Shown here in pieces: positions 13,000 through 45,902 of a DNA stretch of 64,000 nucleotides; position 1 is the first letter of the stretch; every line of letters starts with the position of its first letter. The DNA is from Nemertoderma westbladi (lineage: Eukaryota > Animalia > Xenacoelomorpha): assembly GCA_032718475.1 (NCBI GenBank), contig JAUCBJ010007135.1, positions 1 through 64,000 of the forward strand, in the 5' to 3' direction. The notes beneath the pieces were generated by a model that worked only from the letters and a program-made list of their open reading frames with translations, was not told where the DNA came from and did not search any database. The position numbers and the translations under genes were made by a program.

Positions 13000-14951
13000 T
13001 GCCTTCACAGAAGCAGTTAAATTAGCAGCTGCAGAAACAGTTCCTGTATACCCTCGAAACAGGAAAAGGGCCCCTTGGGCTGACAACAAAATTCAAAAGT
13101 GGCGAAATGACCTCTATAAGGCGCAGAAAAAGGCACAGAAAGAGTCACGACTCAAACAGACTACAGCGGCCAAGAATGCCGTTAAGGCTGCATCTAGGTC
13201 CCTGAACAGGCAGTACTCTGCTAATCTACAGGAGCTAATAAACCAACAGGTTGATGCCATCAATGATGCTGACGACAGCAGGCAATCATCCCAGGCATGG
13301 AGATCGATCAATCTGCTTACTGGGCGGAAAAGCCAACCAACCACCAAGGTTAAGGCTGAATCACCAGCCGATCGCCTCAATGGTTGGAAAGCCCACTTTG
13401 AAAAGCATGACAGGGTATAGAAAAATATAGAAAATAATGACAGGGTATTGCCTGATAACTTTATAGAATTTAAAGCTCATCTATCCCATCATAGTAGACA
13501 TGTACCGAACAACAAGAGTCCCACAAGAAATGAAAACAAATAAGTTGGTGCCAGTTCCCAAGAAGGGCAACCTAACACTCTATGGTTGTTTTCGGGGAAT
13601 CTCATTAATCTCGATGGCTGCAAAGCTATATAATAGAATTATAAATCGCATCAGGGATCCCATTGAGAGACTGCTCCGTGGAAATCAGAATGGGTTCCGT
13701 AAAGGTCGTGGGACAATGGAACCCATTTTGGCACTTAGAAGGATAATTGAAGAATTATCAAAAAAGAAAGACAGGCACCTGGCTGTTATATTTGTTGACT
13801 TCTTCAAGGCCTTTGATTCAGTCTCTCGCTCATGTATGTTCAGCATACTTTCATTATATGGGATTCCTGATGAAATTATTGCAGAAATCAGATCAGTATA
13901 CTATGGCTCGACAACATTTGTGTCTACTGTTGACGGTGACACAGAACCATTTGAAGTGTTATGGGGCATCCTCCAGAGAGACACACTTGCACCATTCTTG
14001 TTCATAATTATGGTTGACTATGTTCTACGCATGTCCTTAGATCATCATAATGATGATGGGGCGATGATAACTCCACCTACTGGCTCCAGAAGTCTAGGAA
14101 ATCCTGCCAAGTACCTAACTGATCTAGACTTTGCTGATGACTTAGGAGTACTCTCAGAATCACTAGAGGGAGCGCAACGGCTCCTCAGCTCAATAGAACA
14201 GGCTGCTTCTGGTGTTGGTCTTTTTATTAACTTCAAAAAAACCAAAATTTTGACAGTTTACTTTGAAAGTCATCAGCAAGTCTCTGACTGGATGAGCATA
14301 AGCTCAAAGCAAGGTATGCTTGAGCATGTGGAAGACTTCTGTTACCTGGGATCATGGATCCGGAAGTCAGGTGAGGACCTTTCAATATGTAAGGGAAAGG
14401 CATGGGCAGCCTTGAATAGGCATTCTAGGATTTGGAAGTCACAGAGAATTAATCGGAAACTTAAGGTCCGATTATTTAGAGCAGCAGTAGTTCCAGTACT
14501 CCTTTATGGGAATCCATGCTGGGCTCTAACTGCTGAGGACACCAAATCTCTGGATGACAAATTCACAAGAATGCTACGCCTGGTTCATTGTGTCAATTAC
14601 AATGCACCCATCCCCAACCAGACACTATATAACATTGGAGGTGTCTCATTGGTTCCCCCAAGATGACACTAGAACAAAGTCGTCTCCGCTTTGCAGGACA
14701 TTGCTTTCACCGTGAGGACCAGCCAGTGCATAATCTTGTGCTTTGGCAGCCTCATGGAGTGAATAACCATGGTGGACAGCCCATGACATTCTTGAGACGC
14801 ATCTTAAAGGACACGGGCCTTGAAGATGCGGATGATCTAGCAAATGTCATGGGTGATATAGAGTTGTGGCGGTGCAATTTTGTCGAAAAGTCGGCACAAC
14901 ATTCTTAAAAATGCAACTGCAATGCAGCATGCCGATCCTAGTATTAGTAGT
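13000..14951 (+). mobile_element. RTE-like LINE, 5'-truncated, RT domain and 3' end
   Basis: PKKGNL, FRGISL, QNGFRKGR, FVDFFKAFDSV, GILQRDTLAPFLF, LDFADD. Frameshift near 14663. tagtattagtag tail. Confidence 0.9.
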
Positions 14952-16790: not shown

Positions 16791-16927
16791 AAGTGATAAA
16801 CAAGTGCCAAAATGTACTAGATATAGCAAAAAATATACAAATTTATAACGAAACTGTGAAAGCAAGGCAAATACGTCGAATTTTAAAAGTTTTTTTTACG
16901 TAAGACTAATGTACAAATAGTTATCTA

Positions 16928-18534
16928 TGTTCGCGGTATTTCAACTTTCCATAACGCGAGTTGAATATTTTTGTATTTATTTAAAATTGATTATTCCGAT
17001 ATTACTACTGGGTGCGGGACCATGGGTTTTGGGCACATTCAATAAACTGGGGGCGATTTATGGGCGAACTTTGGGGCAACTTACAGGGTACGGGAATAAT
17101 TTCAAAGTTATAAGGGCCAGGGGGGATGGAAAATGCAAGCAGTATTCAGGTTAGCCTGAGTACTATTAGGCCCTGGCCAACTTCCTGCTGCCTGTAGGGG
17201 TGGATTTGGTAATGCGCCAGGCCTAAAGGACAAGGACTGCCCTTAGCGGTCCCTGGCCAACGGCAGCTACTACGAGACTGAAAAGAACTCAGAACGCTGA
17301 CTGCTTGTGTCAGGGATTTGCGACGGGCACCGACGGCCCCTTAGTAGCCAAGCCGTTCTGGTTCTCGATGATCGAACCCCGGGGTTCGTGAGGGGTGGAG
17401 CGGACACGCGAACAGGTGGCCAACTAACGACTGCCCCCTGACCTAAGCCGTACTGGTTCTCGATGACCGATCCCTTCGGGGTTCGTGAGGGGTGGGACGG
17501 ACATGCGAAATGGCTGGCCACAGGACTGGTTTGACAAGGACTGCCCTTAGCGGTCTCGGGTCAACGGCAGCTACTACGAGCCTGAAAAGAACTTGGAACG
17601 CTGACTGCTTGACTGGGATTTGCGACGGGAACCGACGACAGAACCCTTGGCCAAGCCGTTCTGGTTCTCGATGATCGTTCCCTTCGGGGTTCGTGAGGGG
17701 TGGAACGGACACGCGATGGGGTCGAAAGACAAAGGACTAGACTCGACTAGACTCTACTGGCCTACCGACTGTTCGGAGCAGTTTCTCGGCTGCCGAAGCG
17801 ACTACGAGCCTGAAACGGACTCGGAAAGCCTAGGTGGTTGGGTTTCTGTGATGAACTGACGGACCCCTAGCCAAGCCGTTCTGGTTCTCGATGATCGAAC
17901 CCTTCGGGGTTCGTGAGGGGTGGAACGGACACGCGAACGGGTCCACCGACACGACAGACTCCTAGCCAAGCCGTACTGGTTCTCGATGACCGAACCCTTC
18001 GGGGTTCGAGAGGGGTGGTACGGATACGCGACAGAGTCTACCGACTGGACCGACCCTTAGCCAAGCCGTGCTGGTTCTCGATGATCGTTCCCTTCGCGGT
18101 TCGTGAGGGGTGGAACGGACACGCGACAGGGTCGACCGACACCGACACTACGGTACTAGGACTAGGACCGAGGGAAAATCTGGGGAACATTAGGTAGGCT
18201 AAAATTCTGAGCGAACAGCGGGTTATTAAATAATATACCGTAGGGATTTATATTATCGTGTATACTTATTGTGAATATTTGGTGTATATTGATTTGGGGA
18301 AGCCCAAAATTATTCTTAAACAAGTTTCAATATTGTTGAACAAGGTTCAACAGAGTTCAGTTACATTAAAGAGTATATCCAACTAATGCAGCTTTTCTCA
18401 ACCGCAAACTTGCATCTTAGAAAATATTCCCTCCCCACAATCAATATCCGGTGACTGGCCGGGGCTCGGTGGTCTGTTAAGTCACGTCTCCAGCATCGGC
18501 GTTTTTCCCCCCTGGTGTAGGAATAACGGCAACA
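16928..18534 (+). repeat. BEL-1 5' LTR (1607 bp)
   Basis: tgttcgcggt...aacggcaaca; matches 29470-30513. Confidence 0.95.
17335..18134 (+). ncRNA. Array of six structured RNA hairpin units (K-turn + UUCG) in the LTR
   Basis: Cores start at 17348, 17443, 17651, 17871, 17966 and 18061. Adjacent units are 95 nt apart. Covarying stems. Confidence 0.7.
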
Positions 18535-18744
18535 AAATTAAGAATAATTATCGTGGTCAACTTCAACTGGTGGAAGTTGAGAATCCTTCAATACTTCAAA
18601 AACTCTCTACGTGCTTGCCAGCACCCACTACGAGGAAACTCTGGTATTTGAGTTGAGACAAAGTCGTGGTTTAATTAATCAGCAAACTCGATCTAACCAA
18701 CTCATAGTCGGCAGATCACATATTTGGAGAGTTGTTAACAGGGA

Positions 18745-18936
18745 ATGGAAGTATCGATCACACCCATTGATATAATTCAAGTTGAGCCAGGAATCTGGCA
18801 CGTCGAAGTTGAGGTACAAGGAACGAACGTCGGACGATTCAGGATTACTGTTCGGGTGGTTCAAGCTGAGTACAATACCTACGATGAACTGTTTTACGAC
18901 ATCGCGTATCTCGCCATCGACGAGGCGTTACAATGA
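18745..18936 (+). CDS. Small upstream ORF (63 aa) overlapping the gag start (ATGA)
   Basis: ATG-initiated. Its TGA overlaps the gag ATG at 18933-18936. No recognised homology. Confidence 0.4.
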   Translation: MEVSITPIDIIQVEPGIWHVEVEVQGTNVGRFRITVRVVQAEYNTYDELFYDIAYLAIDEALQ

Positions 18937-21554
18937 CAACAAATAACGTATCCGATACCGACGAGATGGATCACCACACAGACTCGGAAGCCGACGAGGT
19001 ACCAAACGTCAAAAACATGACCCGTCGGTTAGGGGCTCTTAAAGGCGGAGTAACCCGAGCGTATCAACGGATGGAGAAACAACTCAAGGGAGTCAAAACC
19101 CCCCTCAATGAGGTACAAACTCAGCTTCAAAGTATCCGAAATATCCTACAGCGGTACGAAAGAATGATACAGGCGTACCAAGAGCTTGTTCCCCCCACCG
19201 ATCTGGAAAACTACCCCAAGCTGGAAGAACACGTTGTACATCTAGATGGGTTCCGCAAACAACACCGGAGGACCCTCAGCCTTGTGAGAGGCTATGAGGA
19301 ACAGTATTACAAGAGGGCTGAAAGAACAGACGCGGAATCAGTACGATCCTCCAGCATCAGGACAGGAGTACATCGCAAAAGAATGAGGTCCACCAGAAAT
19401 CAGCACTCCAGCGCTAGGAGCGAGATATCCGGCTCAGCGCGCAGTTCTCAAGGGGCGCCGCCACTCCGAGACCAACTGCGAGAGCGGAAGGCATTAGCCC
19501 TCAAAGCTCGGATGGAAGATGAGTATATTCAACTGCAAGCCGAGCAAGATGTATTAGCTGCAGAAACACAAAGGCGTGAGGCCGAACAAGCGGCCGAACG
19601 GCAGGCCGAACAACGTGAACAGGAAGCCGAACAACGCAGGCGAGAGGACGAACAACGCAAACGAGAGGACGAACGACAGGCCGAACAACGCAAACACGAG
19701 GACGAACGACAGGCCGAACAGCGCAAACACGAGGCCGAACAACGCAAACAGGAGGCCGAACAACGCGGACGAGAGGCCGAACGGGAGATCGAACAACGTA
19801 AATGGGAAGCAGAAATGCGTAAACAACACGCCGAGGCCCAAGCAATTCTCATCCACAAAAAGAACGCGGATATTGCAAAACTCGCGGAATACGAAGCCGC
19901 ACTTATAGAACGAGATATTCAACTCTACGAGGACTGGGAGAGGGATATAGATCAGGAATATGAACCAATCCCGGTACCGGAATTAGAAAAGTCATTTATA
20001 CCGACAGCGGCGAAACTTCCGAAACCCGAAATCCCGCCTACCAAACAGTCTACGCTATCGGCACAAGCACCGGTGTTCCATCCACCACCAGCGACGCTAA
20101 AGAACGAGGAACCTTATTTCCCATCCAACACCACGACAGCGAGTGTACCCAAGTACGAGCCTGAAAAGGACTCGGAACGGGACGCCACTCCCCGATCAAA
20201 CAACCCATTTACATCAACACCACAAACTCGTAGCTGCGTCATTATTAAAACTCCACCTATCATTGATCCATCAAGTATGGGAGTGAGTGCCAATAACTAT
20301 AACCCTCTGAGTCACTCCAGTTCAGACGACGTCAGCATCATCCGGGCGTTGGAGAACCGCCTTGCTATGCCTAAGATGGAGATTCGCACCTTCGAAGGAG
20401 ATCCCGTCGATTACCTCAGATTCAAGAAACGGTTCTTCGCGCAGATCGGATCAACGGACATAGCCGACGCACAGAAATTGGTATATTTATCGCAATACCT
20501 GGGTGACAAACCACGCAGAATTATTGCATGTTTTGAAGGAGGTTCTCATGAGGCATACTATGACGCATGGAAGACTCTAGATAAAAGATACGGAAACACC
20601 GGAACTATAATTAATAAAACTCTAGAGAGACTGATACAGGACGCGGGATCACTAGGGGACCCACAGAACATACAGGAATTCTCCGACTCTATGAAGGATG
20701 CCTACTACACTCTGAAACCCTTAAATAAGGAGGATCAGGTAAACAACATTCTAAACCTCCGACAGATCGCCCGGAAGTTCCCCGGATGGCTACAAAGTAA
20801 GTGGGCTTATAAATGTGTAGATCTCCGGCGCAGACATCCAGATCAAGATCCTAGCTTCCTTGAAATGTCGGCATTCCTGGACGATATCTCCGAAGCCATG
20901 AATGACTCGATGTTTTCAAAACAAAGTCTCGCAAAGTTGGACGGAATGGAGAGCAATTCCAGGAATAAGATAACCCCTCCGAAACCGAGATTCCGCCCCC
21001 CACCGGTAAGTACGATGGCCATCACCATGGCTGAGGATTCCGACGACGAAGACTACGAGGAACCGACATCCGCCGAGGAATGGGCATGTTATCTCGCGAA
21101 TTGGGCCCCCGAAAGGGAAGGCGTCACAAATTCCCTACTCTGTCTCTTCTGTGGGGAGAAACATAAAGTGGAATTCTGCAGGAAGTTTCAGTTCGCCGAA
21201 CTCGTCCCACGTTTCGAGGCGATAATGAAACACCGAGGATGTTTCCGGTGTCTTGGAACAGGTCACTACGTTCGGGATTGCGACCAAAGGTCGTGCTGTG
21301 CTGTCTGTAACGACCAACGCCATCACACGCTCCTCCACATCCCCGCGAACTTCGACTTTACTACCCTCCCCTTTCGGATCGAAGCCAGGCGAAGAGGAGA
21401 AACAAACCACGTCTTCAAAGGAACCCGGACAACCCAACGGAGAGAAACCAACCCGTTTAAAATCTCCACCGCTACACCACAAGTAACAAATATTTCGGCC
21501 ACGATTAATCTTATAAATCGCCGCTACATGGTTTTCTCCAGATGGAAGGAGTGA
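18933..21554 (+). CDS. gag: BEL/Pao Gag
   Basis: Coiled-coil EAEQRK repeats, FEGDPVDY...KLVYLSQYL...AWKTLDKRYG capsid-like region, three Cys/His knuckles (CLFCGEKH, CFRCLGTGH, CAVCNDQRHHTLLH). Confidence 0.92.
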   Translation: MTTNNVSDTDEMDHHTDSEADEVPNVKNMTRRLGALKGGVTRAYQRMEKQLKGVKTPLNEVQTQLQSIRNILQRYERMIQAYQELVPPTDLENYPKLEEHVVHLDGFRKQHRRTLSLVRGYEEQYYKRAERTDAESVRSSSIRTGVHRKRMRSTRNQHSSARSEISGSARSSQGAPPLRDQLRERKALALKARMEDEYIQLQAEQDVLAAETQRREAEQAAERQAEQREQEAEQRRREDEQRKREDERQAEQRKHEDERQAEQRKHEAEQRKQEAEQRGREAEREIEQRKWEAEMRKQHAEAQAILIHKKNADIAKLAEYEAALIERDIQLYEDWERDIDQEYEPIPVPELEKSFIPTAAKLPKPEIPPTKQSTLSAQAPVFHPPPATLKNEEPYFPSNTTTASVPKYEPEKDSERDATPRSNNPFTSTPQTRSCVIIKTPPIIDPSSMGVSANNYNPLSHSSSDDVSIIRALENRLAMPKMEIRTFEGDPVDYLRFKKRFFAQIGSTDIADAQKLVYLSQYLGDKPRRIIACFEGGSHEAYYDAWKTLDKRYGNTGTIINKTLERLIQDAGSLGDPQNIQEFSDSMKDAYYTLKPLNKEDQVNNILNLRQIARKFPGWLQSKWAYKCVDLRRRHPDQDPSFLEMSAFLDDISEAMNDSMFSKQSLAKLDGMESNSRNKITPPKPRFRPPPVSTMAITMAEDSDDEDYEEPTSAEEWACYLANWAPEREGVTNSLLCLFCGEKHKVEFCRKFQFAELVPRFEAIMKHRGCFRCLGTGHYVRDCDQRSCCAVCNDQRHHTLLHIPANFDFTTLPFRIEARRRGETNHVFKGTRTTQRRETNPFKISTATPQVTNISATINLINRRYMVFSRWKE

Positions 21555-24500
21555 TGAAGGGCTACGAAACGGCTAAGTTAACCATAAAGAACGCCTTGGT
21601 ACACACAGACCTCCGGGTGCGGTTCCGACAATCAGCCGAGTACGCCCCCCTCATACAATTGGCCCTGGACGATGTAGACCTGAGGTGTCCGCAGTTGGAC
21701 GTAAACCGTATCACCCTACTGATCGGACTTGATACACCGGAACTACACATCCCCACCGGAGATATCGCCCGATCTATAAACCAGGATGACGGATTTTATG
21801 CTGAACGAACAATAATGGGATGGACACTCTGCGGCATTAAGGAGGAAACCACGGACACCTATACCTACCTTCCCAAATGTCAGATTAAAGAGAATGTAAC
21901 CTCCGTGGGTTACTGCTCAGCTTCGGATCTCGACGAGGATTTGTTTCTGGAAACCGAGAAAACCCAACGAGAGATGACGAAATATTTTAATTTGGAGACC
22001 CAGGAGTTCGCGGAAAAGAACGAAAATCCATCCGAAGAGGACCAATATTGTATGGACGTTCTCGACCAGGCCACGTTTAAAGACGGACACTGGAGTTCAC
22101 CTATGTTATGGAAGGACCCAAACAAACCAATGGCAAACAACGCCAGCATGGCACTTAGGCGACTTAAAGGGATTCTACGCCGGTTGAATGACCAACCCGA
22201 GATAAAGGAGAAATATAATACCGTAATCCAAGGATATCTCAATGATGGATTGGCAGAAATAGTACCACGGAACGAACTGCAAGGTGGTGAAAGAACATAT
22301 TATCTCCCAACCCACTATGTAGTAGAAGCCCGCAAAGGTGGGAAAATCCGAGTGGTAAATGATGCTGCCGCTATGTACCAGGGCGAATCCCTAAACAGTC
22401 AACTTTACACGGGACCCAACATATATAGCACACTCATTGGCGTATTGATCAGGTTCAGGGAAAACCGGGTAGCATTCACCTGTGACATCAAGGCCATGTT
22501 TCATCAAGTTCGTACGTTACCAAGAGACTCGGACTGTCTACGTATCCTATGGACGGATAAAACGCTCACTCAACAGGAGATTAGCCAACTCACGATCAAG
22601 GACGTAGACGTAATGCGTATGGTCGTCAGGATCTTCGGCGCTAAGGACTCGCCGGTAGCATGCAGTGACATGCTAAAGAGGACAGCAACTATGTGCGAAA
22701 ACGAGTTCCCCCCAACCGTCATAGAAACCATTCGACTATGCTTCTACGTGGACGACGGATGCGCCGGCGCGGATAATGTGGATGAGGCATATCGGCTAGC
22801 GATGGGGATGGTAGAATGTCTGAAGAAAGGAGGGTTTCCGCTCGTGAAGTTCAGATCCCACGACAAAACACTTATGGAAAAGTTTCCGGAGGACATCCGG
22901 CTGGAAAATAACAAGATGTATTCGGAGGATGTGGAACATCGTGTACTCGGGATCGAATGGGACATAGAATCCGATGAATTCATCTTCAAATATAAACCCC
23001 TACCCAAGCCTATGACAAAAAGGGGATGTTTGTCGATAAAAAGTGCCATCTTCGACCCACTAAATTTCATATCTCCAGTAACCTTGGCCGGAATGAACCT
23101 GATTAAGGAAATGTGGATAGAAGGACTGGGATGGGACGAAGAGCTTCCCCCATACCTTAGCGTCAAATGGAGAAAATGGACGGAGCAGCTCGAACACCTA
23201 CATCTTATGCGAATACCTAGACCGTTCTTCCTCGATAAACTGCCCACCGATATCTTCCAGCTCCACACCTTTTCGGATGCTTCAAATACCGGAATCGGCG
23301 TAGTAACCTTCCTACGGAGACTAAGTAGCGATGGAAACGGCGATACAAGCTTCTTATTCTCCAAAGCAAAGACAGTATCCGGGGAATTCGTAGCAACGAT
23401 TCCGAGACTCGAGCTACAAGCTGCAGTTTGGGCAGTAAGACAGAATCGCATGGCTATGCGGAACCTACGGATCCCCATAGAATCTCAACACTTCTGGGTA
23501 GATTCGAGTATAGTTCTCTATTATCTCCACTCTCCATCACGGCGTCACACCACGTTTGTTGCAAATCGAGCCACAGAGATTAAACAGTGTACAGGCCGAG
23601 AACAGTGGCATCACGTGAACGGGAAGGGAAACCCAGCGGACTTATCAAGCCGAGGCGCCACCCCAAAACAACTCGGTAAAAGTAAACTCTGGCTTACCGG
23701 CCCGGAATTCCTACGGCAACCACAGTTAACATGGAGTACCCGATTCGACCCCGAACTCGATAGCGGAAAATACTCCGAGGACGATAAAGAGATTCGTAAA
23801 ATCCATCGAAGCAACGCGGTGGAAATTTATAGTTGCCTGACTGAGCCTGCAAAGGACTCGGGCAGGCACTATAACGTCGCGACGATCACTCAACTAGCGA
23901 CGTCTTTACATCGGTTGATCGAGCGAACTTCATCCATGAGACGGCTCGTCCACCACGTTATAACCCTTCGCAACTTCCTACGGTGGAAAAACAACAAACC
24001 GATAGTTCAACGGAATATACAAGAACTCATTATCGCGGAGAAGTGTATTGTTAGATATGTCCAGAAAGAAAGTTTCCCCGATGAATGGGAACAACTTAGT
24101 GCGGGCAAAACGTTGAAACCGGACAGCCCAGTCTACCAACTAAGACCAATGATGGGAGAGGACGGACTGATCCGACTGAATACCCGGATGGCAAACGCCC
24201 CGGTCGAATATGAGGTTAAATACCCGGCGCTTCTGCCCGGAACGTCGACACTAGCTAAGCTATTAATTCTACAATGTCACGAGGACAACCACCACGCAGG
24301 ACAGAATTGGATTATAGCTAATAAAAGACAAAGATATTGGATCACCCACATCCAGCCACTGATCCGGAAAGTGTTGAAACGTTGCTTCACCTGCAGACGT
24401 TACCTAGCGCCACCAATCACCCAAAAGATGGCCGACTTACCAGCCACCCGTCTACAAGCGGATTCCCAGCCATTCTACGTCACCGGGGTGGACTGTTTCG

Positions 24501-25450
24501 GACCGTTCACGGTTATTGAACGACGATCCAACATCAAATGCTGGGGAGCCATCTTCACCTGCCTGAGGTCTAGGGCAATTTACCTAGATATCGTGGTAAA
24601 TCTGACACAACACGCATTCATCAACGCTCTGCGTCGGTTCGTGGCGAACAACGGGACATGCCGCCACATGTATTCCGATAATGGTATAAACTTTGTGGGA
24701 GGAGAAAGGGAACTCAGAGAGGCGATCGAGGGATGGTTTACCGATAACACCGCATCCCAAGTCTGGAAGGAACACCAGATACAGTGGCACTTCCAGACCC
24801 CCTTAGCCCCCCATACGAGCGGGGTATGGGAGAAACTGATCGACCTCGTGAAACGATCCATGCGCGTCGCTCTAGGCGATACCCGGGTAACCCATGACAC
24901 CCTCCGCACAACATTCTGCGAGATCACGGCTACCCTGAACAACCGACCTATTGTCCCTATCCGCGACGACCCCACAGACCTGGAGCCCCTCACTCCTAAC
25001 CACCTACTGGGGAGACCCAAAACCCACCTCCTCCCGGAAACCATGTTCCCGGATCCCAACGAGATCACGAAACATACAAACTGGAAAAAGGCCCAAGCGT
25101 TGGCAGCGCATTGGTGGAGAATTTGGGCCCAGGAATACCTCATAACCCTCCGGACCAGGAGGAAATGGAACAACACCTACCGGAACGTCGCAGTTGGCGA
25201 CATGGTGCTAGTTAAAGAAGATCTCAAAGACCGCGTTCACTGGCCTGTGGCGCGGGTCGTGACCATACACCCAAGCAAAGACGGACTTGCGAGGACTGTG
25301 ACGATACGAACGGCAAAGGGCCACTACCAACGCCCTATCCAGAAGCTGTGCCTTCTTGAAGGCAATGACAGTGGTGATTCTACAAGAGGTGATAAGTTCC
25401 CTACTACGGATCCTGCTGCAGACATTGGTGACAATTACAAAACCGTGTAA
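21542..25450 (+). CDS. pol: BEL/Pao Pol (partial protease, RT, RNase H, integrase)
   Basis: DIKAMFHQV, FYVDD, HTFSDAS, IPRLEL, NPADLSSRG, GVDCFGP, YSDNGINF, GVWEKLI. Protease DSG motif not found. Confidence 0.95.
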   Translation: MEGVMKGYETAKLTIKNALVHTDLRVRFRQSAEYAPLIQLALDDVDLRCPQLDVNRITLLIGLDTPELHIPTGDIARSINQDDGFYAERTIMGWTLCGIKEETTDTYTYLPKCQIKENVTSVGYCSASDLDEDLFLETEKTQREMTKYFNLETQEFAEKNENPSEEDQYCMDVLDQATFKDGHWSSPMLWKDPNKPMANNASMALRRLKGILRRLNDQPEIKEKYNTVIQGYLNDGLAEIVPRNELQGGERTYYLPTHYVVEARKGGKIRVVNDAAAMYQGESLNSQLYTGPNIYSTLIGVLIRFRENRVAFTCDIKAMFHQVRTLPRDSDCLRILWTDKTLTQQEISQLTIKDVDVMRMVVRIFGAKDSPVACSDMLKRTATMCENEFPPTVIETIRLCFYVDDGCAGADNVDEAYRLAMGMVECLKKGGFPLVKFRSHDKTLMEKFPEDIRLENNKMYSEDVEHRVLGIEWDIESDEFIFKYKPLPKPMTKRGCLSIKSAIFDPLNFISPVTLAGMNLIKEMWIEGLGWDEELPPYLSVKWRKWTEQLEHLHLMRIPRPFFLDKLPTDIFQLHTFSDASNTGIGVVTFLRRLSSDGNGDTSFLFSKAKTVSGEFVATIPRLELQAAVWAVRQNRMAMRNLRIPIESQHFWVDSSIVLYYLHSPSRRHTTFVANRATEIKQCTGREQWHHVNGKGNPADLSSRGATPKQLGKSKLWLTGPEFLRQPQLTWSTRFDPELDSGKYSEDDKEIRKIHRSNAVEIYSCLTEPAKDSGRHYNVATITQLATSLHRLIERTSSMRRLVHHVITLRNFLRWKNNKPIVQRNIQELIIAEKCIVRYVQKESFPDEWEQLSAGKTLKPDSPVYQLRPMMGEDGLIRLNTRMANAPVEYEVKYPALLPGTSTLAKLLILQCHEDNHHAGQNWIIANKRQRYWITHIQPLIRKVLKRCFTCRRYLAPPITQKMADLPATRLQADSQPFYVTGVDCFGPFTVIERRSNIKCWGAIFTCLRSRAIYLDIVVNLTQHAFINALRRFVANNGTCRHMYSDNGINFVGGERELREAIEGWFTDNTASQVWKEHQIQWHFQTPLAPHTSGVWEKLIDLVKRSMRVALGDTRVTHDTLRTTFCEITATLNNRPIVPIRDDPTDLEPLTPNHLLGRPKTHLLPETMFPDPNEITKHTNWKKAQALAAHWWRIWAQEYLITLRTRRKWNNTYRNVAVGDMVLVKEDLKDRVHWPVARVVTIHPSKDGLARTVTIRTAKGHYQRPIQKLCLLEGNDSGDSTRGDKFPTTDPAADIGDNYKTV

Positions 25451-25734
25451 CCCTTCTCATCATGTTGACAAACTCTTATAAACTGTGATTTATCGACAAC
25501 GAATTATGGACCCCCCTTAAACCAACTGTAACCACGCAATGGTATTTGTGTTTCCTCGTGTGTTATGTGGAGTCCAGCATCACCCTGCAGATGTTTCGAC
25601 TGACGCAGGGTCGTTTATGTATTGTTTACCCTGATTTTGGTCATCGGGACCAATGATATTGGATTATTGGAAATGGAAAAGATTTGAAGTGGAATTCATT
25701 GTATTCATTGCAGTATGTTATGTTGTCCGTTGCG

Positions 25735-26150
25735 TGCGCAGTTCGGGGCGTAGGCGGTGTAACGAGTCCAGCTGTAGATCCCGGATTGCCGCGCAACACC
25801 CCCTCTATCCCGTTATTCTGGTGGGTCCATGGTGCATCCACGTGACTTCGACGATAGAGGGTTTTATGTTTCTCAGTCGCGTTATTCTGGTGGGACCGTT
25901 ACGTGGATTTTGGGGCGTAGGCGGTGTAACGAGTCCAGCTGTAGATCCCAGAATGTTGCGTAACCCCATCCCACATGACTTCGTCGACTGAGCTTTATGT
26001 TGTTGGGAGTGTTATTCTGGTGGGTCCCTGGTGCATCCACGTGACTTCACTCCTAGCGTCTTCATTGTCCGTTACGTGTGCAGTTTGGGGCGTAGGCGGT
26101 GTAACGAGTCCAGCTGTAGATCCCAGATTGCCGCGTAACACCCCTTCCAC
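25735..26150 (+). repeat. GC-rich interleaved repeats between pol and the accessory ORF
   Basis: ggggcgtaggcggtgtaacgagtccagctgtagatccc x3 and gttattctggtggg x3. Confidence 0.9.
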
Positions 26151-26692
26151 GACAAAGATTAACCAAAGAAAATGATTGAATATAGTTGGAAACGATGAAA
26201 AGGATCAGACAACTCTACTATAAACCTGAATGATGACGCGTATACTGATGAAAATGAAATGATGCGCACCCTGGTGTTGCGCTTATAACAAATGATGATA
26301 GCCGGGGGGCTATAACCCCAATGATGATGTGGAAATAAATAAACGTGAAATAAATGGTGGAAATAAATGTTGAAATATATGTGGAAATAAATGAAATGAG
26401 ATGAAATAATAATGAAATGAAAAAAGACAAAAAAAAGGTATAAAAGAGGTCAAAGAAAAGAATTGGAAAAAAAAGGACAAAAAAGTCATAAAAAACTGGT
26501 TGGATATTATGTATAGCTATAGTAACTGTAAATGCTGAATGTATTAGCAATAAGATGATAGATGTCTATATAGCAATGTTATTTAATAAACTGAATTAAA
26601 TAAAAAACTGAATTATTCTGCGATCGCTATAGTTTCAGACTTTCTGGACTTATAATTAACTGATCTAATTTGTAACGGATATAATCGTAAAT

Positions 26693-27352
26693 ATGGACCC
26701 AAATCGCCAAATTATCGGCGAATTACGTAACACGATAGATCTACTGGAATATTCGCAACCTGGATCCCCTGACTTTGATACAAAGTGGAGCATTCTGCTA
26801 AATGAGAACGTACGAGAAGTTAAATTCACCGGGCGAGAGGGACCGGATTCTAAGAATCTACGAGCCCTCCGGTTAGCCGATGCTAGTACGAGACTGAAAA
26901 GAACTCAGAACGCAAAGGCAACCGGAGGGGACGATTCGTCGTTTTGGGAAACGTTCCGGCAGAGCGTCTACAGATCCCGATGTTTGATCTACGACAACGA
27001 GGGAAACGCGACGCCCACCTCGAAAGCGATTACGTTGGCGAGATGTCAAAGTTTCGTCGACGACAAGAGTACGTACCTCGCCCACTGGGGAAACCTGTCG
27101 GAGTGTACGGCGACGCTTCGAGAGGAACGCGTATCGATTATCCAAAACCGCGACGACTACCAGGAAAAGTACGGGGCGAAAGAATATTGTCGATCCTTAG
27201 TCGTCGTCCTCGGAACCCTGGACGGTTTGGTACTGGTGTGCCGAATATTCACCCAGACACCCGACACCCAGACAGGAAGTGCAGGCAGCCGGAGCGATCT
27301 GGTTGCTGCCTCCGGATATCCAAAAGATCCTCTTCGACTTCGACGTCATTAA
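26693..27352 (+). CDS. Accessory ORF, N-terminal part (ExoI motif of a DEDDy exonuclease)
   Basis: CLIYDNEG fits the ExoI DxE motif. VVVLGTLDGLVLV strands follow. Overlaps the next ORF in the +1 frame. Confidence 0.65.
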   Translation: MDPNRQIIGELRNTIDLLEYSQPGSPDFDTKWSILLNENVREVKFTGREGPDSKNLRALRLADASTRLKRTQNAKATGGDDSSFWETFRQSVYRSRCLIYDNEGNATPTSKAITLARCQSFVDDKSTYLAHWGNLSECTATLREERVSIIQNRDDYQEKYGAKEYCRSLVVVLGTLDGLVLVCRIFTQTPDTQTGSAGSRSDLVAASGYPKDPLRLRRH

Positions 27353-29303
27353 AATCGGGTCGGATATCAAGGCGGACGTCCGGAACGACTACGCGAACGC
27401 TCCCGCAGGAAGAAACCGACGAAACGACCTCAACGCACTTAGCCATTGCATCGACACTCAAACGCTGCTAGCCTGGTTACGATTCGCCGAGTTCATGCGA
27501 GGATTCCAAGAAGTGAGACCGACGAAATCCGGGATCGGCTACCTCGCTGTGCTCAACGGCGGTATCGACTTCAAACCCCAGAAATTCCGGGACTATAATA
27601 AAATATACGGCGGATACCCGGGATTAGAGATAAAGAGCGAGCGAGAGGGTCGATGGAAGGACGTCGATCGGAAGTGGACGATACACCAAAGGTGGGAGAA
27701 TCCCGATCGACGGAGCTATATCTACGTCGTTATGGAATGCTACACCGTCGCTAAGTTTATCTGTAAAACTCTCGATAACCTTATTACGGCGGTCCCCCTT
27801 TCCTTCGTCGACTACGATTGGAACGAGGTTATAAACCATGCGTTTAAAGCGGTCGAGAACATTACACCGGGAGAATCGAAAACACCCGCCGTTATCGATT
27901 CCTGGGACGAGAGCGGACCTTACGACATCCCTACGATTACCGAACTTCTCGGTGCGGAGGAGCCTCTGATCTCCTCGGAAGGGGAAGAGATATGGCTAAA
28001 CGAGGGTGTTCTACTCTCCACCCCGAAGCGACAACTCGAGCCGGAGGCCGCGTACGGACCGGCCGCCAAACGGGTTGCCTCGGCCGAACCGATGAAGAGA
28101 GCAGGCGTCTACACCCCACGCGGCTCCGGTAGCCCCGCGAGAGAGGTAGCCACTACGGCTGCATTGAGCGACTTCGGCGACATATGCCAACGGTTATCCC
28201 CGTATCCTTTCCCGGGCGGCGAAGATTGGTCGTCGGAGATTCCGAGTACCACCCAACAACGGACCCGCTCAGCGATACTGGTCAAGGAAGGCCCCAGCGA
28301 TGCGCCGACACCCGACGATCTCCTCGGTATCCCTCCGTCGAAAACCCCGGCACCTCTTCGCCGACCAGCGGTAGCTACTACACCCGCCGTTCCTCAGGAC
28401 CCTATGCGACTAACCCGTTGGTACGCCGAGCAAACTGAATGGATCCACCGCCAGAAACGGTCGTCCGAGCTGAGACCAGCGGGACACAAAGAGGGTTATC
28501 GAAGCGAGAACATACTACGCAAAAGCCCAGCATTCCGCGGGCTACCGACCACCGAGAATATTCCGAAGAGCGACCGACGACTCGAATACTACGCCGGCGT
28601 CCCGATTCCGATATTCCCCGGTCGAGAGATGCAGTTGGAGGTATGCGGCGACTGCGGTTCGGAGCAGTGCCCACGCAGCAGAAGGAATCGGGTTACCGAT
28701 TCTTGCCTCCAGCTCCTCGGGATACTCAATTGCCCATACTGCGCGACATCGGGCCACGACGTTTCCGTCTGCCCGATTCTTTATAACCTCTGCACCACGT
28801 GCGGTTTCCGTGGACATTCCTCTAGCCCCCGCTGCTATATCAAATGTCCAACCAAAGACGTTACCGCTATGGGAAATATGGTCATGTTTGAAACATACGC
28901 AAACAGCCACTTAAAGACCAAGTTTCGGAGAAACGCTCGGAATATCGCGCAGGAGATGGCGTGCGGATATTTCTCCTTCCCGGAACGCCTCCACACGTCG
29001 GCCTCGCTACTCTTCCATTACGTGGATCTGCTACTGAGCGCCGGATTATTCGGTCCATTCGAAGTTATTAGACGATTATATTCGTATAAAGAGGAGTTCG
29101 GTGACGGAGAATGGTTCCTAGAGGCACGCAACTCCGAGTTGGAAAGACGAACCGACATGATACCGTTGCCTTCGAAAGGAAGAGCCGCCAGGAGACAAGC
29201 CGAAGCGTTACTCACAATGGATGTTGACGCTCCTCTACCAGCCATAGCGATCGATGAGAGTCGAAGGGCGAAGAGACGAAAGGCGTACCAGAAAAAGAAA
29301 TAA
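27279..29303 (+). CDS. Accessory ORF, C-terminal part: WRN/RNase D-like 3'-5' exonuclease, Pro-rich linker, CCHC knuckles, basic tail
   Basis: LPPDIQKILFDFDVIKIGSDIKAD (ExoII), CIDTQ, SGIGYLA, RWENP..YIYVVME (ExoIII-like), CPYCATSGHDVSVC, CTTCGFRGHSSSPRC, RRAKRRKAYQKKK. Confidence 0.75.
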   Translation: MQAAGAIWLLPPDIQKILFDFDVIKIGSDIKADVRNDYANAPAGRNRRNDLNALSHCIDTQTLLAWLRFAEFMRGFQEVRPTKSGIGYLAVLNGGIDFKPQKFRDYNKIYGGYPGLEIKSEREGRWKDVDRKWTIHQRWENPDRRSYIYVVMECYTVAKFICKTLDNLITAVPLSFVDYDWNEVINHAFKAVENITPGESKTPAVIDSWDESGPYDIPTITELLGAEEPLISSEGEEIWLNEGVLLSTPKRQLEPEAAYGPAAKRVASAEPMKRAGVYTPRGSGSPAREVATTAALSDFGDICQRLSPYPFPGGEDWSSEIPSTTQQRTRSAILVKEGPSDAPTPDDLLGIPPSKTPAPLRRPAVATTPAVPQDPMRLTRWYAEQTEWIHRQKRSSELRPAGHKEGYRSENILRKSPAFRGLPTTENIPKSDRRLEYYAGVPIPIFPGREMQLEVCGDCGSEQCPRSRRNRVTDSCLQLLGILNCPYCATSGHDVSVCPILYNLCTTCGFRGHSSSPRCYIKCPTKDVTAMGNMVMFETYANSHLKTKFRRNARNIAQEMACGYFSFPERLHTSASLLFHYVDLLLSAGLFGPFEVIRRLYSYKEEFGDGEWFLEARNSELERRTDMIPLPSKGRAARRQAEALLTMDVDAPLPAIAIDESRRAKRRKAYQKKK

Positions 29304-29458
29304 TGGATTGGGATATTCCAGGAACATTTATCGAACATTTATTTTTATACAAACTCTAGGCCAAATTAATTAAAAACTATGCAATATTAAATTTGGGATT
29401 TTTTATATTGGGAATGACCTACGCAAACTCAATCGACCGACAGACTTCACGAAGGTCA

Positions 29459-29469
29459 TTGGGGGGGAC
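29459..29469 (+). promoter_or_regulatory. Polypurine tract of BEL-1
   Basis: ttgggggggac immediately precedes the TGT of the 3' LTR. Confidence 0.8.
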
Positions 29470-30513
29470 TGTTCGCGGTATTTCAACTTTCCATAACGCG
29501 AGTTGAATATTTTTGTATTTATTTAAAATTGATTATTCCGATATTACTACTGGGTGCGGGACCATGGGTTTTGGGCACATTCAATAAACTGGGGGCGATT
29601 TATGGGCGAACTTTGGGGCAACTTACAGGGTACGGGAATAATTTCAAAGTTATAAGGGCCAGGGGGGATGGAAAATGCAAGCAGTATTCAGGTTAGCCTG
29701 AGTACTATTAGGCCCTGGCCAACTTCCTGCTGCCTGTAGGGGTGGATTTGGTAATGCGCCAGGCCTAAAGGACAAGGACTGCCCTTAGCGGTCCCTGGCC
29801 AACGGCAGCTACTATGAGACTGAAAAGAACTCGGAACGCTGACTGCTTGTGTCAGGGATTTGCGACGGGCACCGACGGCCCCTTAGTAGCCAAGCCGTTC
29901 TGGTTCTCGATGATCGAACCCCGGGGTTCGTGAGGGGTGGAGCGGACATGCGAACAGGTGGCCAACTAACGACTGCCCCCTGACCTAAGCCGTACTGGTT
30001 CTCGATGACCGATCCCTTCGGGGTTCGTGAGGGGTGGGACGGACATGCGAAAGGGCTGGCCACAGGACTGGTTTGACAAGGACTGCCCTTAGCGGTCTCG
30101 GGTCAACGGCAGCTACTACGAGCCTGAAAAGAACTCGGAACGCTGACTGCTTGACTGGGATTTGCGACGGGAACCGACGACAGACCCCTTAGCCAAGCCG
30201 TTCTGGTTCTCGATGATCGTTCCCTTCGGGGTTCGTGAGGGGTGGAACGGACACGCGATGGGGTCGAAAGACAAAGGACTAGACTCGACTAGACTCTACT
30301 GGCCTACCGACTGTTCGGAGCAGTTTCTCGGCTGCCGAAGCGACTACGAGCCTGAAACGGACTCGGAAAGCGAAATGGACCCGCAAACTTGCATCTTAGA
30401 AAATATTCCCTCCCCACAATCAATATCCGGTGACTGGCCGGGGCTCGGTGGTCTGTTAAGTCACGTCTCCAGCATCGGCGTTTTTCCCCCCTGGTGTAGG
30501 AATAACGGCAACA
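29470..30513 (+). repeat. BEL-1 3' LTR (1044 bp, internal deletion)
   Basis: Matches the 5' LTR except for about seven substitutions seen by eye and replacement of 17830-18401 by gaaatggac. Confidence 0.95.
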
Positions 30514-30710
30514 ATCTATAGTGAAATATTTCCACACCATTCCATGAAAACAGTAAGTAAGACTGTTTTCACCAATCAAAATATAAAAATATCAACTAAA
30601 AAATATATCTAATCTAATGTAGGGCCTAAAATATAAAAAATAATCACTGTATAGCCTATTGCATACAAAATATTGCAAATAATACGTAAATATAAAACTT
30701 TAATTTATAC

Positions 30711-30971: not shown

Positions 30972-32531
30972 CCCTATTAGTACCGGGCTATAAAATGTTG
31001 TACAAATACCGGGAGGGGGTCATATTGACCCCCCCCCCTCTAAAATCTACAAATATTTACGAAAACGTCTGATTTTTTGTTTGTACGTAGGTATCACTTG
31101 TCTGGATCCGACCGAAAAAAAAAATTTTCGAAAAAATGTACTGGGGTGGTTATATTGCAGCACAAAAATTACAAGTAGTGCACAATTTTCACAAAATTTG
31201 AAAGTTACATTTTCGGCTAATTATTTTTCAATACAGGTTTTTTGGGGAGCAAAATACATTGGAAAATATTTAAAAATGATATGATTACTATAAATGGCTG
31301 TTTAGTCCTCTCTGCGTAGGAAAAAAATGAAAAAAACAAGTAACCAGCACTTTTCAGTTAGAACACAAAATTTTTAATTCACTTATACGATGCTATAAAT
31401 TCACATTTTCTGGATTTTGAGGGCGCTGATTCTAATGGAATACATTTCTAATATGCCAGATCATTGCTACTTGTATTTTTCGGCGTAATTTAGCAAATTT
31501 TGGTGCTAGCACCAAATTTCGTACCCATCACCAAAAAGTACAAGTTTGCGATGTCCAGTGCTGTTTTTATTGATTCCATCGGATTCAGGACCCTCATAAA
31601 CCCGTATAACGCAAGAAACAAGGTGATACTATCTACTTATCAATTTGCATATTTTCCAAAATTTGGTGCTGGCACAACAATTTTCACCCACCGGCGAAAA
31701 ATACAAGTTTGAGAACTCTTATGAAATTTTTACTGATTCCATTGAATTCAGAACCATCACAAACCCGTATAACGCAAGAAACAAGGTGACACAATCAATT
31801 GATATATTTGATGGTTTTCAAAATTTGGTGCTAGCACCACATTTTGCACCCACATCCGAAAAATAGAAGTTTGAGATGTCTAGTTCGATAATTATATTTT
31901 CCATTGAATTCAGAACAGCCATAAACCTCTAAAACGCAAGAAATAAATTGTCACAAGCAATTTTATATATTGAATGGATTTTCAAAATTTCGTGCTAGCA
32001 CCAAAATTAGCACACAGCACCGAAAAATACAAGTTTGATACGCTTGGTTCAACTCGTATATATTTCATCGAATCCAGAACCTCAAAAAACCCCAATTGCG
32101 TAAAAAACAAGTTTCAAACAATCAATTTACAAAATTGACTTATTTCAAAATTTGGTGCTGGCACCAAAATTTGGCACCCATCGAAAAAAACAAGTTTGAA
32201 ATTTCTAAATCAATTTATATGAATTCCATCCAATTTCTAACACCAAAAAACCGGTGTAAATCAAAAATAGAGATGTTACAATTCATATTTAATGAAATGT
32301 AATTTTCAAAAAACGTCTCAAAAAAGTGCCAAAAGTAGGGTTAAAAAATGGTGCTATAACTCGAAAAGTACCCAATATTTTTGAAAACGGTTTTCACTAC
32401 CATGAAGAGAATAGATTTTTAGGAAAAGTCATAAAATTTCAGATTCCCAACTGCGTTTGTTTCAGAATTATAATAAAAAAACCACGGGGGGGATCATATT
32501 GACCCCCCCCCCCCCCCCGGGTTTAATAGGG
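30972..32531 (+). mobile_element. Non-autonomous piggyBac-type element, copy 1
   Basis: TTAA flanks, CCCTATTA...TAATAGGG ends, subterminal gggggtcatattgaccccc palindromes, internal ~165-bp tandem units, no ORF. Confidence 0.9.
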
Positions 32532-32643
32532 TTAATGGCATAGTTTTTCGAGCGAATGAAATCTTACCCTACACATCTACACCTAAAGAGGTAGTTATTG
32601 GCAGTTCGAGTTCAACGTATACTGATGAATCAATTCCCACAAT

Positions 32644-32895
32644 GGGCTAATTTTGAGTTAGCTCCTTTGAAACGGTTCCGTTTAAAAATGGCTAACTCAG
32701 ACATTAATATCTACAGTATGTAACTCAAAATAATTCAGCAAATTTGAGTTAGCTCCTTTTAAACAGAACAGTTTAAAGGGAGCTAACTCAAAATAATTCT
32801 ACAAATTCTGACTTAGCTCCTTTTAAACGGAAGCATTTAAAGGGAGCTAAATCAAATTCATTACTCAAATAATGAGTTAGCCCCTTTAAACGGTT
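32644..32895. repeat. Tandem hairpin-forming repeats
   Basis: gagttagctccttt alternates with its complement ggagctaactc, about four units. Confidence 0.75.
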
Positions 32896-33059
32896 GATTT
32901 TAAAGTTACGATTTGGTGTGATGACATTAGCTGGAATAAATACATTTTTCTAAAACCCCTCAGCAAAGTCTACTCCTACTCTATACCTCAGCAAAGTATT
33001 CATACTAGATAGCAGATATTACATATAGTACATAGTAGATTATACTGCTGAACAACTGT

Positions 33060-34030
33060 GTTCCTCTAGCAATGAAGTCATTAAAACTGTTAGAGATCTA
33101 ATTAGAGTGATTCTTAGATCCAAGGATTTGACCAGTTGGTTGAGAACCAACCAGGATTTGATGGGTGCAGTGGGCAAAGCAATTACAAACCGCTCCCAAC
33201 TCAAGACCCAGATATTGATGTCTCATGTATATTTGTAACATGTTTAGTTCTCTTGGAGATAGTGGGCTTTGGCGAAACTCATCATAAAACAAATATTTTG
33301 AATGAATCATCACCATTCTTCTACCCTATACTGTCGACCTGTTAGATTCGAGTTTACCAAAGAAAGCAAAGAGAAAATATTGATGGAAAATGATCTTTTA
33401 ACTAAGGATATTGACAAGATTCATCAAACTGTTGTGCAGATCGATGACAAAATGGTTACCATCTTCCACATCACAGAGGTCACCATGTTGGATGGCAAAG
33501 TCCATACCATTATTTCTGATATGTCAGAAAGAACACAAAGCTGTACCTTGTATGGAGCTAAGCCTACTGAAATGAATAATATTGATAGTATAATCGTACA
33601 ACCATTGACTAATGATAACAAAATGCTTCATTGTATATCAACTATCCATCAATGGATAAGATTCCTTGAGTACTTACTGCATATATCGTATCGACTTATC
33701 TTTTGGAGATGGTCATCTTGCAATCCTGTACATGAAAAATTAATGAAGACAGAAAAAAGACGAGTGCAAAAGGAATTCCGAAGTAGACTTGGGCTGAATA
33801 TATATACACCAAGACAATGTGGTGCAGGAATATTCAATCACAGAAACACATATCAGAAGCTGTTCCAGAATACAGAGATCACATCACAAATCTTGCATAT
33901 CAACCAAAAGTTTATTGAACCACTTCATCTGGTACTTATCCAGCTTTGAAGTTGACTCCGCTGCTTTTAAAGCATTTTGTTTGCAGACTGCAAGATATTA
34001 CATGACCCAGTCAATGCATAAGGTCTTAGG
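33060..34030 (+). pseudogene. Transib transposase remnant
   Basis: SSTLYCRPVRF, TMLDGKV, GAKPTEMN, HQWIRFLEYLLHISYRL, LGLNI..PRQ match the Transib/RAG1-core family. Confidence 0.85.
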
Positions 34031-34243
34031 GTCCTTTATGTTAGTTACTTGGTTACAAATACAATATTACAATTGCATAATGTCAATTCAGCTATGCCCA
34101 TTGGCTGTCTTACACACGTTGTCGTCAAAGAACACTTTAACAAAAATGTCTTTGATTTTCAAAAATGTCTTTACACATTTCTCGAGTAAGTAATCTACAA
34201 ATATTAATAACTTCAATTCCAACACATTTCGGCTGTTAATTAA

Positions 34244-45735: not shown

Positions 45736-45902
45736 TCTAACGATTAATCTAACGATTATCTAACGTGTTTACCTAACGAACTTCGCAATATACGAGGGAA
45801 GCGTCTGTTTGTAAATAAGTTAAAAGCTCATCTACTTAATTCAGATGGCCTATCTGCTTCGTAGTCACATATTTTTTACGTTTCTCCTAATAATATATAT
45901 TA

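What the first reader, a model, noticed from the sequence alone, without database searches (positions are those of the whole stretch)
17271..26913. Second RNA motif (loop-E/sarcin-ricin-like hairpin) reused in LTRs, gag and the exonuclease ORF
Seen: TACGAG(A/C)CTGAAA(A/C)G(A/G)ACTC(G/A)GAA occurs at 17271, 17575, 17803, 20154 (gag, read as YEPEKDSE), 26887 (accessory ORF, read as TRLKRTQN; 27 nt identical to 17271) and three times in the 3' LTR. Different reading frames mean it is conserved as nucleic acid. Closing stems covary: cagc/gctg, ccc/ggg, tgc/gca. The internal loop A(G/C)UAC/(G/A)GAAC resembles the AGUA/GAA S-turn of the sarcin-ricin loop, capped here by gag/cuc and a UGAAAA loop. 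Inference: a dispersed protein-binding site, for packaging or autoregulation, written into coding sequence.
Basis: partly seen in the sequence, partly recalled or inferred. Interest (0 to 1): 0.8.

Follow-up and report, generated by a model that had tools for sequence, protein, structure and literature searches.

The report
Repeated folded RNA signal in retrotransposon
A jumping gene carries nine copies of one short hairpin sequence, in its end repeats and inside its protein-coding stretches, set in differently spelled stems; it likely folds as RNA and likely acts as a repeated protein-docking site that helps export or stabilise the element's own RNA.

Summary
Eight copies lie where stated (0 in 100 shuffles), and a ninth, degenerate copy lies in pol. 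All are on the sense strand of one Bel-Pao LTR retrotransposon (16928-30513). The core is near-invariant, while the stems below it differ in sequence yet pair with their own partner; this is strong for the pol and accessory copies and weak for gag. Selection on an RNA fold is therefore likely (about 0.85). The gag and accessory copies fit a canonical sarcin-ricin loop; LTR copies have a rare bulged C; pol lacks the loop. The cap fits a T-loop in 9 of 9 copies. A 12-nt self-priming-like complement suggests the LTR array is U3, the 3' end of the RNA, where retroviral export elements sit. Best reading (0.4): a repeated protein-docking site for export or stability; rivals are packaging and RNA-RNA docking (0.2 each). 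Distant Bel-Pao elements with the same exonuclease gene lack the motif in their coding regions. No Rfam family or paper found describes it.

The parts
16928..30513 (+). Bel-Pao LTR retrotransposon, one inserted copy, flanked by a 5-bp target duplication (16923-16927, 30514-30518)
16928..18534 (+). 5' LTR (TG...CA) with 3 motif hairpins and 6 kink-turn hairpins
29470..30513 (+). 3' LTR; 99.2% identical over 902 nt; lacks the counterpart of 17830-18401
17268..17295 (+). Motif copy LTR5-1 (bulged C), tip of a predicted rod of about 90 nt
17572..17599 (+). Motif copy LTR5-2 (bulged C)
17800..17827 (+). Motif copy LTR5-3 (bulged C; C as sixth loop base)
20151..20178 (+). Motif copy in gag, canonical S-turn sequence, weakest closing stem, in the Pro/Thr-rich stretch before the DUF1759 domain
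   Evidence: (E 1.8e-6)
23827..23874 (+).
   Evidence: (E 0.075)
26865..26929 (+). Motif copy in the accessory ORF (core 26884-26911), canonical S-turn sequence, 16-pair closing helix with a perfect 10-bp base
   Evidence: (E 3.6e-6)
29810..29837 (+). Motif copy LTR3-1
30114..30141 (+). Motif copy LTR3-2
30342..30369 (+). Motif copy LTR3-3; its lower 3' arm is lost at the LTR deletion
17345..18130 (+). Six kink-turn hairpins interleaved with the motif (near 17363, 17458, 17666, 17886, 17981, 18076); three more in the 3' LTR
18308..18319 (+). 12-nt site complementary to the sequence just after the 5' LTR; inferred transcript start (self-priming-like)
18538..18549 (+). Primer-binding-site-like 12 nt, 3 nt after the 5' LTR
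18888..21554 (+). gag (DUF1759, zinc knuckles), stop to stop
21509..25450 (+). pol (Peptidase_A17, integrase zinc finger, DUF5641), stop to stop; no aspartic-protease family hit
25728..26145 (+). Two further multi-copy hairpin families between pol and the accessory gene
26669..27352 (+). Upstream frame of the accessory gene; holds the motif copy; link to the exonuclease only weakly shown
   Evidence: E 8e-4 over 46 aa; no support
27201..29303 (+). Downstream frame of the accessory gene: 3'-5' exonuclease-like part, CCHC knuckles, basic tail
29461..29469 (+). Polypurine tract before the 3' LTR

Best explanation
The motif is a short sense-strand hairpin sequence repeated three times per LTR and once each in gag, pol and the accessory gene, which likely folds as RNA and likely serves as a repeated protein-docking site that would help export, localise or stabilise the element's long RNA. 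Shown: copies, strand, frames, differently spelled but complementary stems. Predicted: a helix, an S-turn (8 of 9 copies), a 3-4 bp stem, a 1x2 purine-rich loop and a T-loop or GNRA-type cap. Inferred: the LTR array is U3 and so sits once at the 3' end of every transcript, beside six kink-turn hairpins that look like L7Ae-family (Snu13) sites. The internal copies would then raise the count to six on full-length RNA. Inferred, weakest step: the partner is an element-encoded zinc-knuckle protein (the accessory protein with its basic tail, or Gag), in the manner of Rex or Rev response elements.
For: Model built from five LTR copies alone finds gag (E 1.8e-6), accessory (3.6e-6) and pol (0.075) as ranks 7-9 of 16 matches. 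Closing arms pair best with their own partner in 5 of 6 rows at both flank lengths. Shuffles as good as observed, 25-nt flanks: 0, 30, 12, 36, 2, 0 of 1000 for LTR1, LTR2, LTR3, gag, pol, accessory. Given the peptide, codons match the LTR letters with P 0.0018 (gag), 4e-5 (accessory), 0.0014 (pol); the pol copy lies in a gap-rich linker, 12-21% identity against 39-54% upstream in 120 homologues. An S-turn descriptor gives 7 hits on the element's + strand, 0 on -, shuffled mean 0.13. The 12-nt complement after the LTR is matched in 3 of 5000 shuffles. Export elements in or next to the 3' LTR or overlapping coding regions are described for HTLV-1, musD, HIV-1 and MLV (PMC4588558, first of two parts read). 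Ty1 Gag aids export and stability of its RNA (PMC4974528, passages). The accessory family profile matches Lin28 knuckles and a CCHC-plus-exonuclease protein.
Against: No binding, probing or expression data. No relative closer than about 40% pol identity, so synonymous-site conservation is untested. Four distant Bel-Pao loci with the same accessory gene show no motif (best E 1.1 over 11 loci) and no dispersed repeat of their own, so the accessory gene does not require such sites. The gag stem is weak: 23% of 1479 background positions do as well at 25 nt, and the unconstrained fold does not form it. Covariation in the 36-nt alignment is modest: 2 of 9 pairs change on both sides, reached by 169 of 500 shuffles. 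The + strand folds better than the - strand in only 4 of 6 hairpins. T-loops are reported as always engaged in long-range RNA contacts or ligand binding (PMC2615604, passages), which points to an RNA partner. The transcript start is inferred from one 12-nt match.
Confidence: 0.4

Rival explanations
1. Dispersed packaging signals: Gag binds the hairpins spread along the genomic RNA and gathers it into particles.
For: One copy per gene, at about 1.85, 5.5, 8.6 and 11.5-12.0 kb of the inferred RNA. Multiple scattered sites are considered likely for Ty packaging (PMC4974528, passages). Gag has zinc knuckles.
Against: No copy lies in the inferred 5' leader. Copies in U3 and the accessory gene would also mark a spliced RNA (an acceptor-like site lies at 26633; no transcript data).
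Confidence: 0.2
2. RNA-RNA docking: each hairpin cap is a T-loop that captures a base from a distant partner (the LTR array, another copy, or a second genome), folding or dimerising the 12-kb RNA.
For: C-UGHAA-N-G in 9 of 9 copies, with variation only at loop positions 3 and 6. This fits the UGNRA/UGHAA consensus (bioRxiv 10.1101/2022.12.26.521914, passages) and the C:G closing pair usual with a one-base bulge (PMC2615604, passages). A transcript with one intact array would carry six motif hairpins and six kink-turn hairpins.
Against: No receptor identified. The basal loop of the kink-turn hairpin fails as an 11-nt GAAA receptor: G6:C7 in 8 of 9 copies and C1:G11 in 0 of 9, changes costing 4.33 and at least 1.73 kcal/mol (PMC2275092 section 15). 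The 6:6 count is one coincidence. The T-loop word alone is common (10 per strand in the other 50 kb).
Confidence: 0.2
3. No RNA function: a DNA-level factor site, or neutral copies spread by template switching, with stems arising by chance.
For: U3 is the usual place of enhancer arrays (recalled). The core is unusually invariant, as recent copying would give. The gag stem is weak. One element only.
Against: Unrelated 14- and 16-pair helices close the pol and accessory copies (2 and 0 of 1000 shuffles). LTR rods hold 4-6 G-U pairs on the + strand. The invariant bases follow RNA 3D-motif rules.
Confidence: 0.1
4. Ribosomal-RNA mimic: a sarcin-ricin-loop look-alike acting as decoy or docking site for translation factors or RNA-cutting defence proteins.
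For: The accessory copy shares 11 consecutive bases with the 5' strand of E. coli 23S helix 95.
Against: Helix 95 has one pair between the S-turn and its tetraloop; here 6-7 pairs and another cap intervene. LTR copies lack the bulged G and pol lacks the S-turn. Best whole-motif identity to the E. coli rRNA operon is 15-16 of 27, the model does not list helix 95, and Rfam gives no rRNA hit.
Confidence: 0.05

Closest known systems
Sarcin-ricin / loop E (S-turn, bulged-G) RNA 3D motif
   Same: 5x4 loop with the same ordered bases in the gag and accessory copies; lower pairs U.C and A.C are among the variants listed in PMC8450098 (passages).
   Different: A module, not a family. LTR copies have a bulged C, called very rare and about 5 kcal/mol less stable there. 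The pol copy lacks it. It sits under a longer stem and another cap than helix 95.
T-loop motif (UGNRA) of riboswitches, tRNA and rRNA
   Same: Loop sequence, one-base bulge and C:G closing pair in 9 of 9 copies.
   Different: No receptor known here; found in a eukaryotic mobile-element RNA; a GNRA tetraloop with a U-A closing pair fits 7 of 9 copies equally well.
Retroviral and retroelement RNA transport elements (HTLV-1 RxRE, HIV-1 RRE, musD MTE, MLV PTE)
   Same: Structured cis-acting RNA in or near the 3' LTR or overlapping coding sequence (PMC4588558).
   Different: Those are single large domains; here one 28-nt module recurs in the LTR and in each gene. No sequence likeness was tested, and function is untested.
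DEDDy-exonuclease ORF3 of rotifer Juno and Vesta LTR retrotransposons (PMC5408684, passages)
   Same: A third ORF with a 3'-5' exonuclease in an LTR element.
   Different: Here a Bel-Pao element, with added CCHC knuckles; the passages seen mention no RNA motif.
Cassandra, Ajax and Helenus: small-RNA-derived sequence in LTRs (PMC10886601, passages)
   Same: RNA-like sequence inside LTRs.
   Different: Those keep polymerase III promoter boxes from 5S or tRNA genes in short non-autonomous elements; here no 5S or tRNA match, and copies lie in coding regions.

Membership tests
Bel-Pao LTR retrotransposon | Peptidase_A17, DUF1759 and DUF5641 domains, TG...CA LTRs, target duplication, polypurine tract | tested here: met
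Sarcin-ricin / loop E motif | 5x4 loop with A.A, U.A and A.G pairs between two helices (sequence level) | tested here: met
   8 of 9 copies; absent in pol; rules from PMC8450098
Sarcin-ricin / loop E motif | Bulged G forming the base triple | tested here: inconclusive
   G in 2 of the 8 S-turn copies (gag, accessory); C in the 6 LTR copies
Sarcin-ricin / loop E motif | S-turn backbone in three dimensions | not testable with these tools
   needs probing or a structure
rRNA helix 95 (sarcin-ricin loop proper) | GAGA tetraloop one pair above the S-turn | tested here: not met
T-loop motif | UGNRA pentaloop, 1-3 bulged bases, closing pair | tested here: met
   9 of 9 copies; rules
T-loop motif | An intercalating base from a receptor | not testable with these tools
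   no receptor identified
GAAA tetraloop / 11-nt receptor pair | Receptor with C1:G11, C2:G10, U3.A8, AA platform, G6:U7 | tested here: not met
   kink-turn hairpin base keeps C2:G10 and AA in 9 of 9, but C1:G11 in 0, U3 in 2, G6:U7 in 1
5S- or tRNA-derived LTR sequence (Cassandra, Ajax, Helenus) | Detectable 5S rRNA or tRNA sequence in the LTR | tested here: not met
   promoter boxes were not searched separately
Retroviral RNA export element | Lies on the transcript, in or near the 3' LTR or in coding sequence | tested here: inconclusive
   U3 position rests on a 12-nt complement; no RNA data
Retroviral RNA export element | Confers export or stability and binds a cognate protein | not testable with these tools
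   needs reporter and binding assays
Retroviral psi packaging signal | Located in the 5' leader, specific to unspliced RNA | tested here: inconclusive
   no copy between the inferred start (18308) and gag; the start itself is inferred
Any Rfam family | Score at the family's threshold | tested here: not met
   one match each at E 2.9 and E 1.3, far below threshold

The most novel reading that the evidence does not exclude
The element builds its 12-kb RNA from a kit of tertiary modules: T-loop-capped S-turn hairpins written into gag, pol and the accessory gene about every 3 kb dock onto a hub of six kink-turn hairpins at the 3' end, folding the genome into a looped, ribozyme-like architecture for export and packaging. 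This would be a self-organising retroelement genome.
Probability: 0.12. Interest if true: 0.88.

Novelty: new variant of a known kind. Interest (0 to 1): 0.62.

Why it matters
How LTR retrotransposons mark their own long RNA for export and packaging is poorly defined even for Ty1 and Ty3 (PMC4974528, passages). This element offers a discrete, countable signal: one 28-nt module with recognisable 3D-motif grammar, kept inside coding frames and beside a kink-turn array. Each copy can be probed and tested in a simple reporter. It also points to an apparently undescribed Bel-Pao lineage with an exonuclease-plus-knuckle accessory gene and possible self-priming. The limit is that all of it rests on one slightly decayed insertion.

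Tried and rejected
No host genome is held and no sequencing runs were obtained, so family-level variation was not seen. The exact motif pattern gave 0 hits in viral and metagenome contigs; a 201-nt LTR piece gave none in phages. Word-based search with the exonuclease part found nothing among 611 candidates; the full HMMER search found 9 relatives. The 12-protein alignment was too diverse for locus search; a 3-protein alignment gave 0, 9 and 2 loci in three collections; a pol query gave none in viral contigs. AlphaFold of the downstream accessory frame was poor (mean pLDDT 40), Foldseek gave no match at E 0.001, and the wider fold search was busy twice. A second Atlas search did not complete. 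Dropped ideas: (1) the C.A versus U-G difference between LTRs as selected covariation, better explained by two CpG decays; (2) an 11-nt receptor in the kink-turn hairpin; (3) rRNA or 5S origin; (4) the even-spacing value of 0.01, which is post hoc and includes a probably untranscribed 5' LTR copy; (5) the stem-given-peptide values, because the pairs were chosen from the observed fold. The descriptors were written after seeing the motif. Six look-ups in earlier findings returned nothing on this element; the S-turn notes there concern phages. One paper look-up failed on a short term and was not repeated.
Full report
SETTING. The finding lies in one Bel-Pao LTR retrotransposon at 16928-30513. It has TG...CA LTRs, a 5-bp target duplication and a polypurine tract. 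gag carries DUF1759 and zinc knuckles; pol carries Peptidase_A17, an integrase zinc finger and DUF5641. The named pol relatives listed are nearly all from animals and none exceeds about 40% identity, so the host is probably an animal (inference). The copy is slightly decayed. The LTRs differ at 7 of 902 bases, the 3' LTR lacks the counterpart of 17830-18401, the accessory gene changes frame near 27200-27350, and no aspartic-protease family matched.

OBSERVATION. A covariance model built from five LTR copies only ranks the gag copy (E 1.8e-6), the accessory copy (3.6e-6) and a new pol copy (0.075) seventh to ninth of 16 matches with E up to 10. The pol copy is 18 of 19 bases identical to the gag core; this match and the gag-accessory match are the only two dispersed repeats in the internal region.

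IS IT SELECTED AS A STRUCTURE? The likeness between copies ends at the pair closing the S-turn; below it the arms are unrelated yet complementary. With 25-nt flanks, shuffles as good as observed were 0, 30, 12, 36, 2 and 0 of 1000 for LTR1, LTR2, LTR3, gag, pol and accessory; with 15-nt flanks 296, 74, 51, 65, 1 and 2. The own partner was best in 5 of 6 rows at each length (exceptions: LTR1 at 15 nt, gag at 25 nt). The gag stem is the weak one: 23% of 1479 background positions match it at 25 nt, 3% at 15 nt. Given each peptide and the element's codon usage, the codons match the LTR letters with P 0.0018, 4e-5 and 0.0014 (gag, accessory, pol); this shows a nucleic-acid origin. The pol copy sits at residue 779, in a linker with 12-21% identity and 28-34% gaps among 120 homologues. 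Against: only 3 of 8 short windows had z below -2; in the 36-column alignment 91.7% of cells pair (9 of 500 shuffles as high) but only 2 of 9 pairs change on both sides (169 of 500); the + strand folds better in 4 of 6 hairpins. I put selection on an RNA fold at about 0.85.

ANATOMY. From base to tip: a C-G pair; a 5x4 loop; a pair that is C-G in most copies; an invariant three-pair stem; a 1x2 purine-rich loop; a C-G pair; a six-base cap. The gag and accessory loops follow the sarcin-ricin rules in PMC8450098 (passages), with the bulged G. The six LTR copies have a bulged C, which that paper calls very rare and destabilising but still compatible. The pol copy replaces the loop by a nearly continuous helix, so the constant element is the top. 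The cap can be read as a GNRA tetraloop closed by U-A (7 of 9 copies) or as a T-loop, UGHAA plus one free base closed by C:G (9 of 9). The latter matches the consensus in bioRxiv 10.1101/2022.12.26.521914 and the closing-pair rule in PMC2615604 (passages).

NEIGHBOURS. In the 5' LTR three motif hairpins alternate with six kink-turn hairpins. All nine kink-turn copies keep the C-G pair, GAU bulge and tandem G.A pairs, and six have U.U next, as in the Snu13-binding box C/D kink-turns described in PMC5499572 (passages). Twelve bases just after the 5' LTR are perfectly complementary to 18308-18319 (3 of 5000 block shuffles). If this is self-priming of the Tf1 type (recalled, not checked in a paper), transcription starts at about 18308, an ATTAAA at 18365 is the poly(A) signal, and the array is U3, present once at the 3' end of the RNA. 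Other readings remain (TATA-like word at 17109, AATAAA at 17041). The downstream accessory frame looks like a 3'-5' exonuclease (Atlas 0.92) with CCHC knuckles and a basic tail. Nine relatives share the knuckle domain. Their profile matches PDB 7C45/7C42 (CCHC protein with an exonuclease-like first domain), EXD2 and Lin28. That the upstream frame holding the motif is the exonuclease's N-terminus rests on one weak match (E 8e-4); searches did not support it.

RELATIVES. Eleven loci encode the accessory family. Four of them (L004-L007) also hold Bel-Pao gag and pol at 27-29% pol identity. None of the 11 has the motif (13 matches at E 1.1 to 9.7 in 90,194 bases; 0 S-turn descriptor hits), and L004-L007 have no dispersed repeat. 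Complete LTRs were not seen on these contigs. The second Bel-Pao element in the window also lacks it.

MECHANISM. I commit to a repeated protein-docking site for export, localisation or stability of the full-length RNA (0.4). Reasons: the probable U3 position, where HTLV-1 and musD transport elements lie and coding-region elements are known from HIV-1 and MLV (PMC4588558, first of two parts read); the adjacent kink-turn array; and two element-encoded knuckle proteins. Packaging by Gag (0.2) suits one copy per gene but not the presence on spliced RNA. RNA-RNA docking (0.2) suits the T-loop but has no identified receptor; the one candidate failed. No RNA function (0.1) and rRNA mimicry (0.05) fit least.

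NOVELTY. Rfam has no matching family. Paper searches found no description of such a motif in an LTR retrotransposon: one search gave 0 papers, one viroid review, and the listings nothing on it (listings only; most subscription papers are not in the library; supplements were not read). The modules and the general kind of element are known; their dispersal through every gene of a Bel-Pao element beside a kink-turn array appears undescribed. PMC4033767 (passages) gives a loose precedent for GA-type motifs as transport signals in retroposed RNAs. PMC5341730 (passages) added only that Rev multimerises on the RRE. Verdict: real, probably functional, new variant of a known kind, interest 0.62.

Noticed in passing
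window 18308-18319 and 18538-18549: Perfect 12-nt complement between an LTR-internal site and the sequence 3 nt after the 5' LTR (3 of 5000 shuffles): possible self-priming in a Bel-Pao element; no tRNA-type site starts right after the LTR.
   Followed up: partly
window 25728-26145: Two more multi-copy hairpin families between pol and the accessory gene: three copies of a 38-nt core on long stems with paired changes, whose loop begins with a UGNRA word, and three copies of a second split motif, one enclosing a copy of the first.
   Followed up: partly
window 17345-18130 and 29887-30270: Nine kink-turn hairpins with a basal internal loop that half resembles an 11-nt tetraloop receptor but fails its key pairs.
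   Followed up: yes
L004 110-8965, L005 1-9338, L006 3-10042, L007 2-8447: Bel-Pao elements with open gag-pol followed by an ORF of the same knuckle-bearing accessory family; suggests a wider Bel-Pao lineage with this third gene, not found in my paper searches.
   Followed up: partly
L010, L011: The accessory family also occurs on short contigs filed under two bacterial MAGs; probably eukaryotic contamination.
   Followed up: no
window 17273-17649: All 7 differences between the two LTRs fall in this 377-nt part of the array, 4 of them CpG transitions, hinting at host methylation of the element.
   Followed up: partly
window 55733-63655 (-): A second, unrelated Bel-Pao element with an intact 2152-aa gag-pol frame and an upstream 487-aa repetitive ORF without Pfam match.
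   Followed up: no
window 8731-11583 (-), 13467-14666 (+), 5304-6590 (+): A fragmented RT/integrase element, an RT fragment with DUF6451, and a 7TM receptor-like ORF.
   Followed up: no
window 31031-35782 and 45850-46635: A 3.27-kb tandem duplication holding 163-nt repeats, and a 52-nt tandem array.
   Followed up: no
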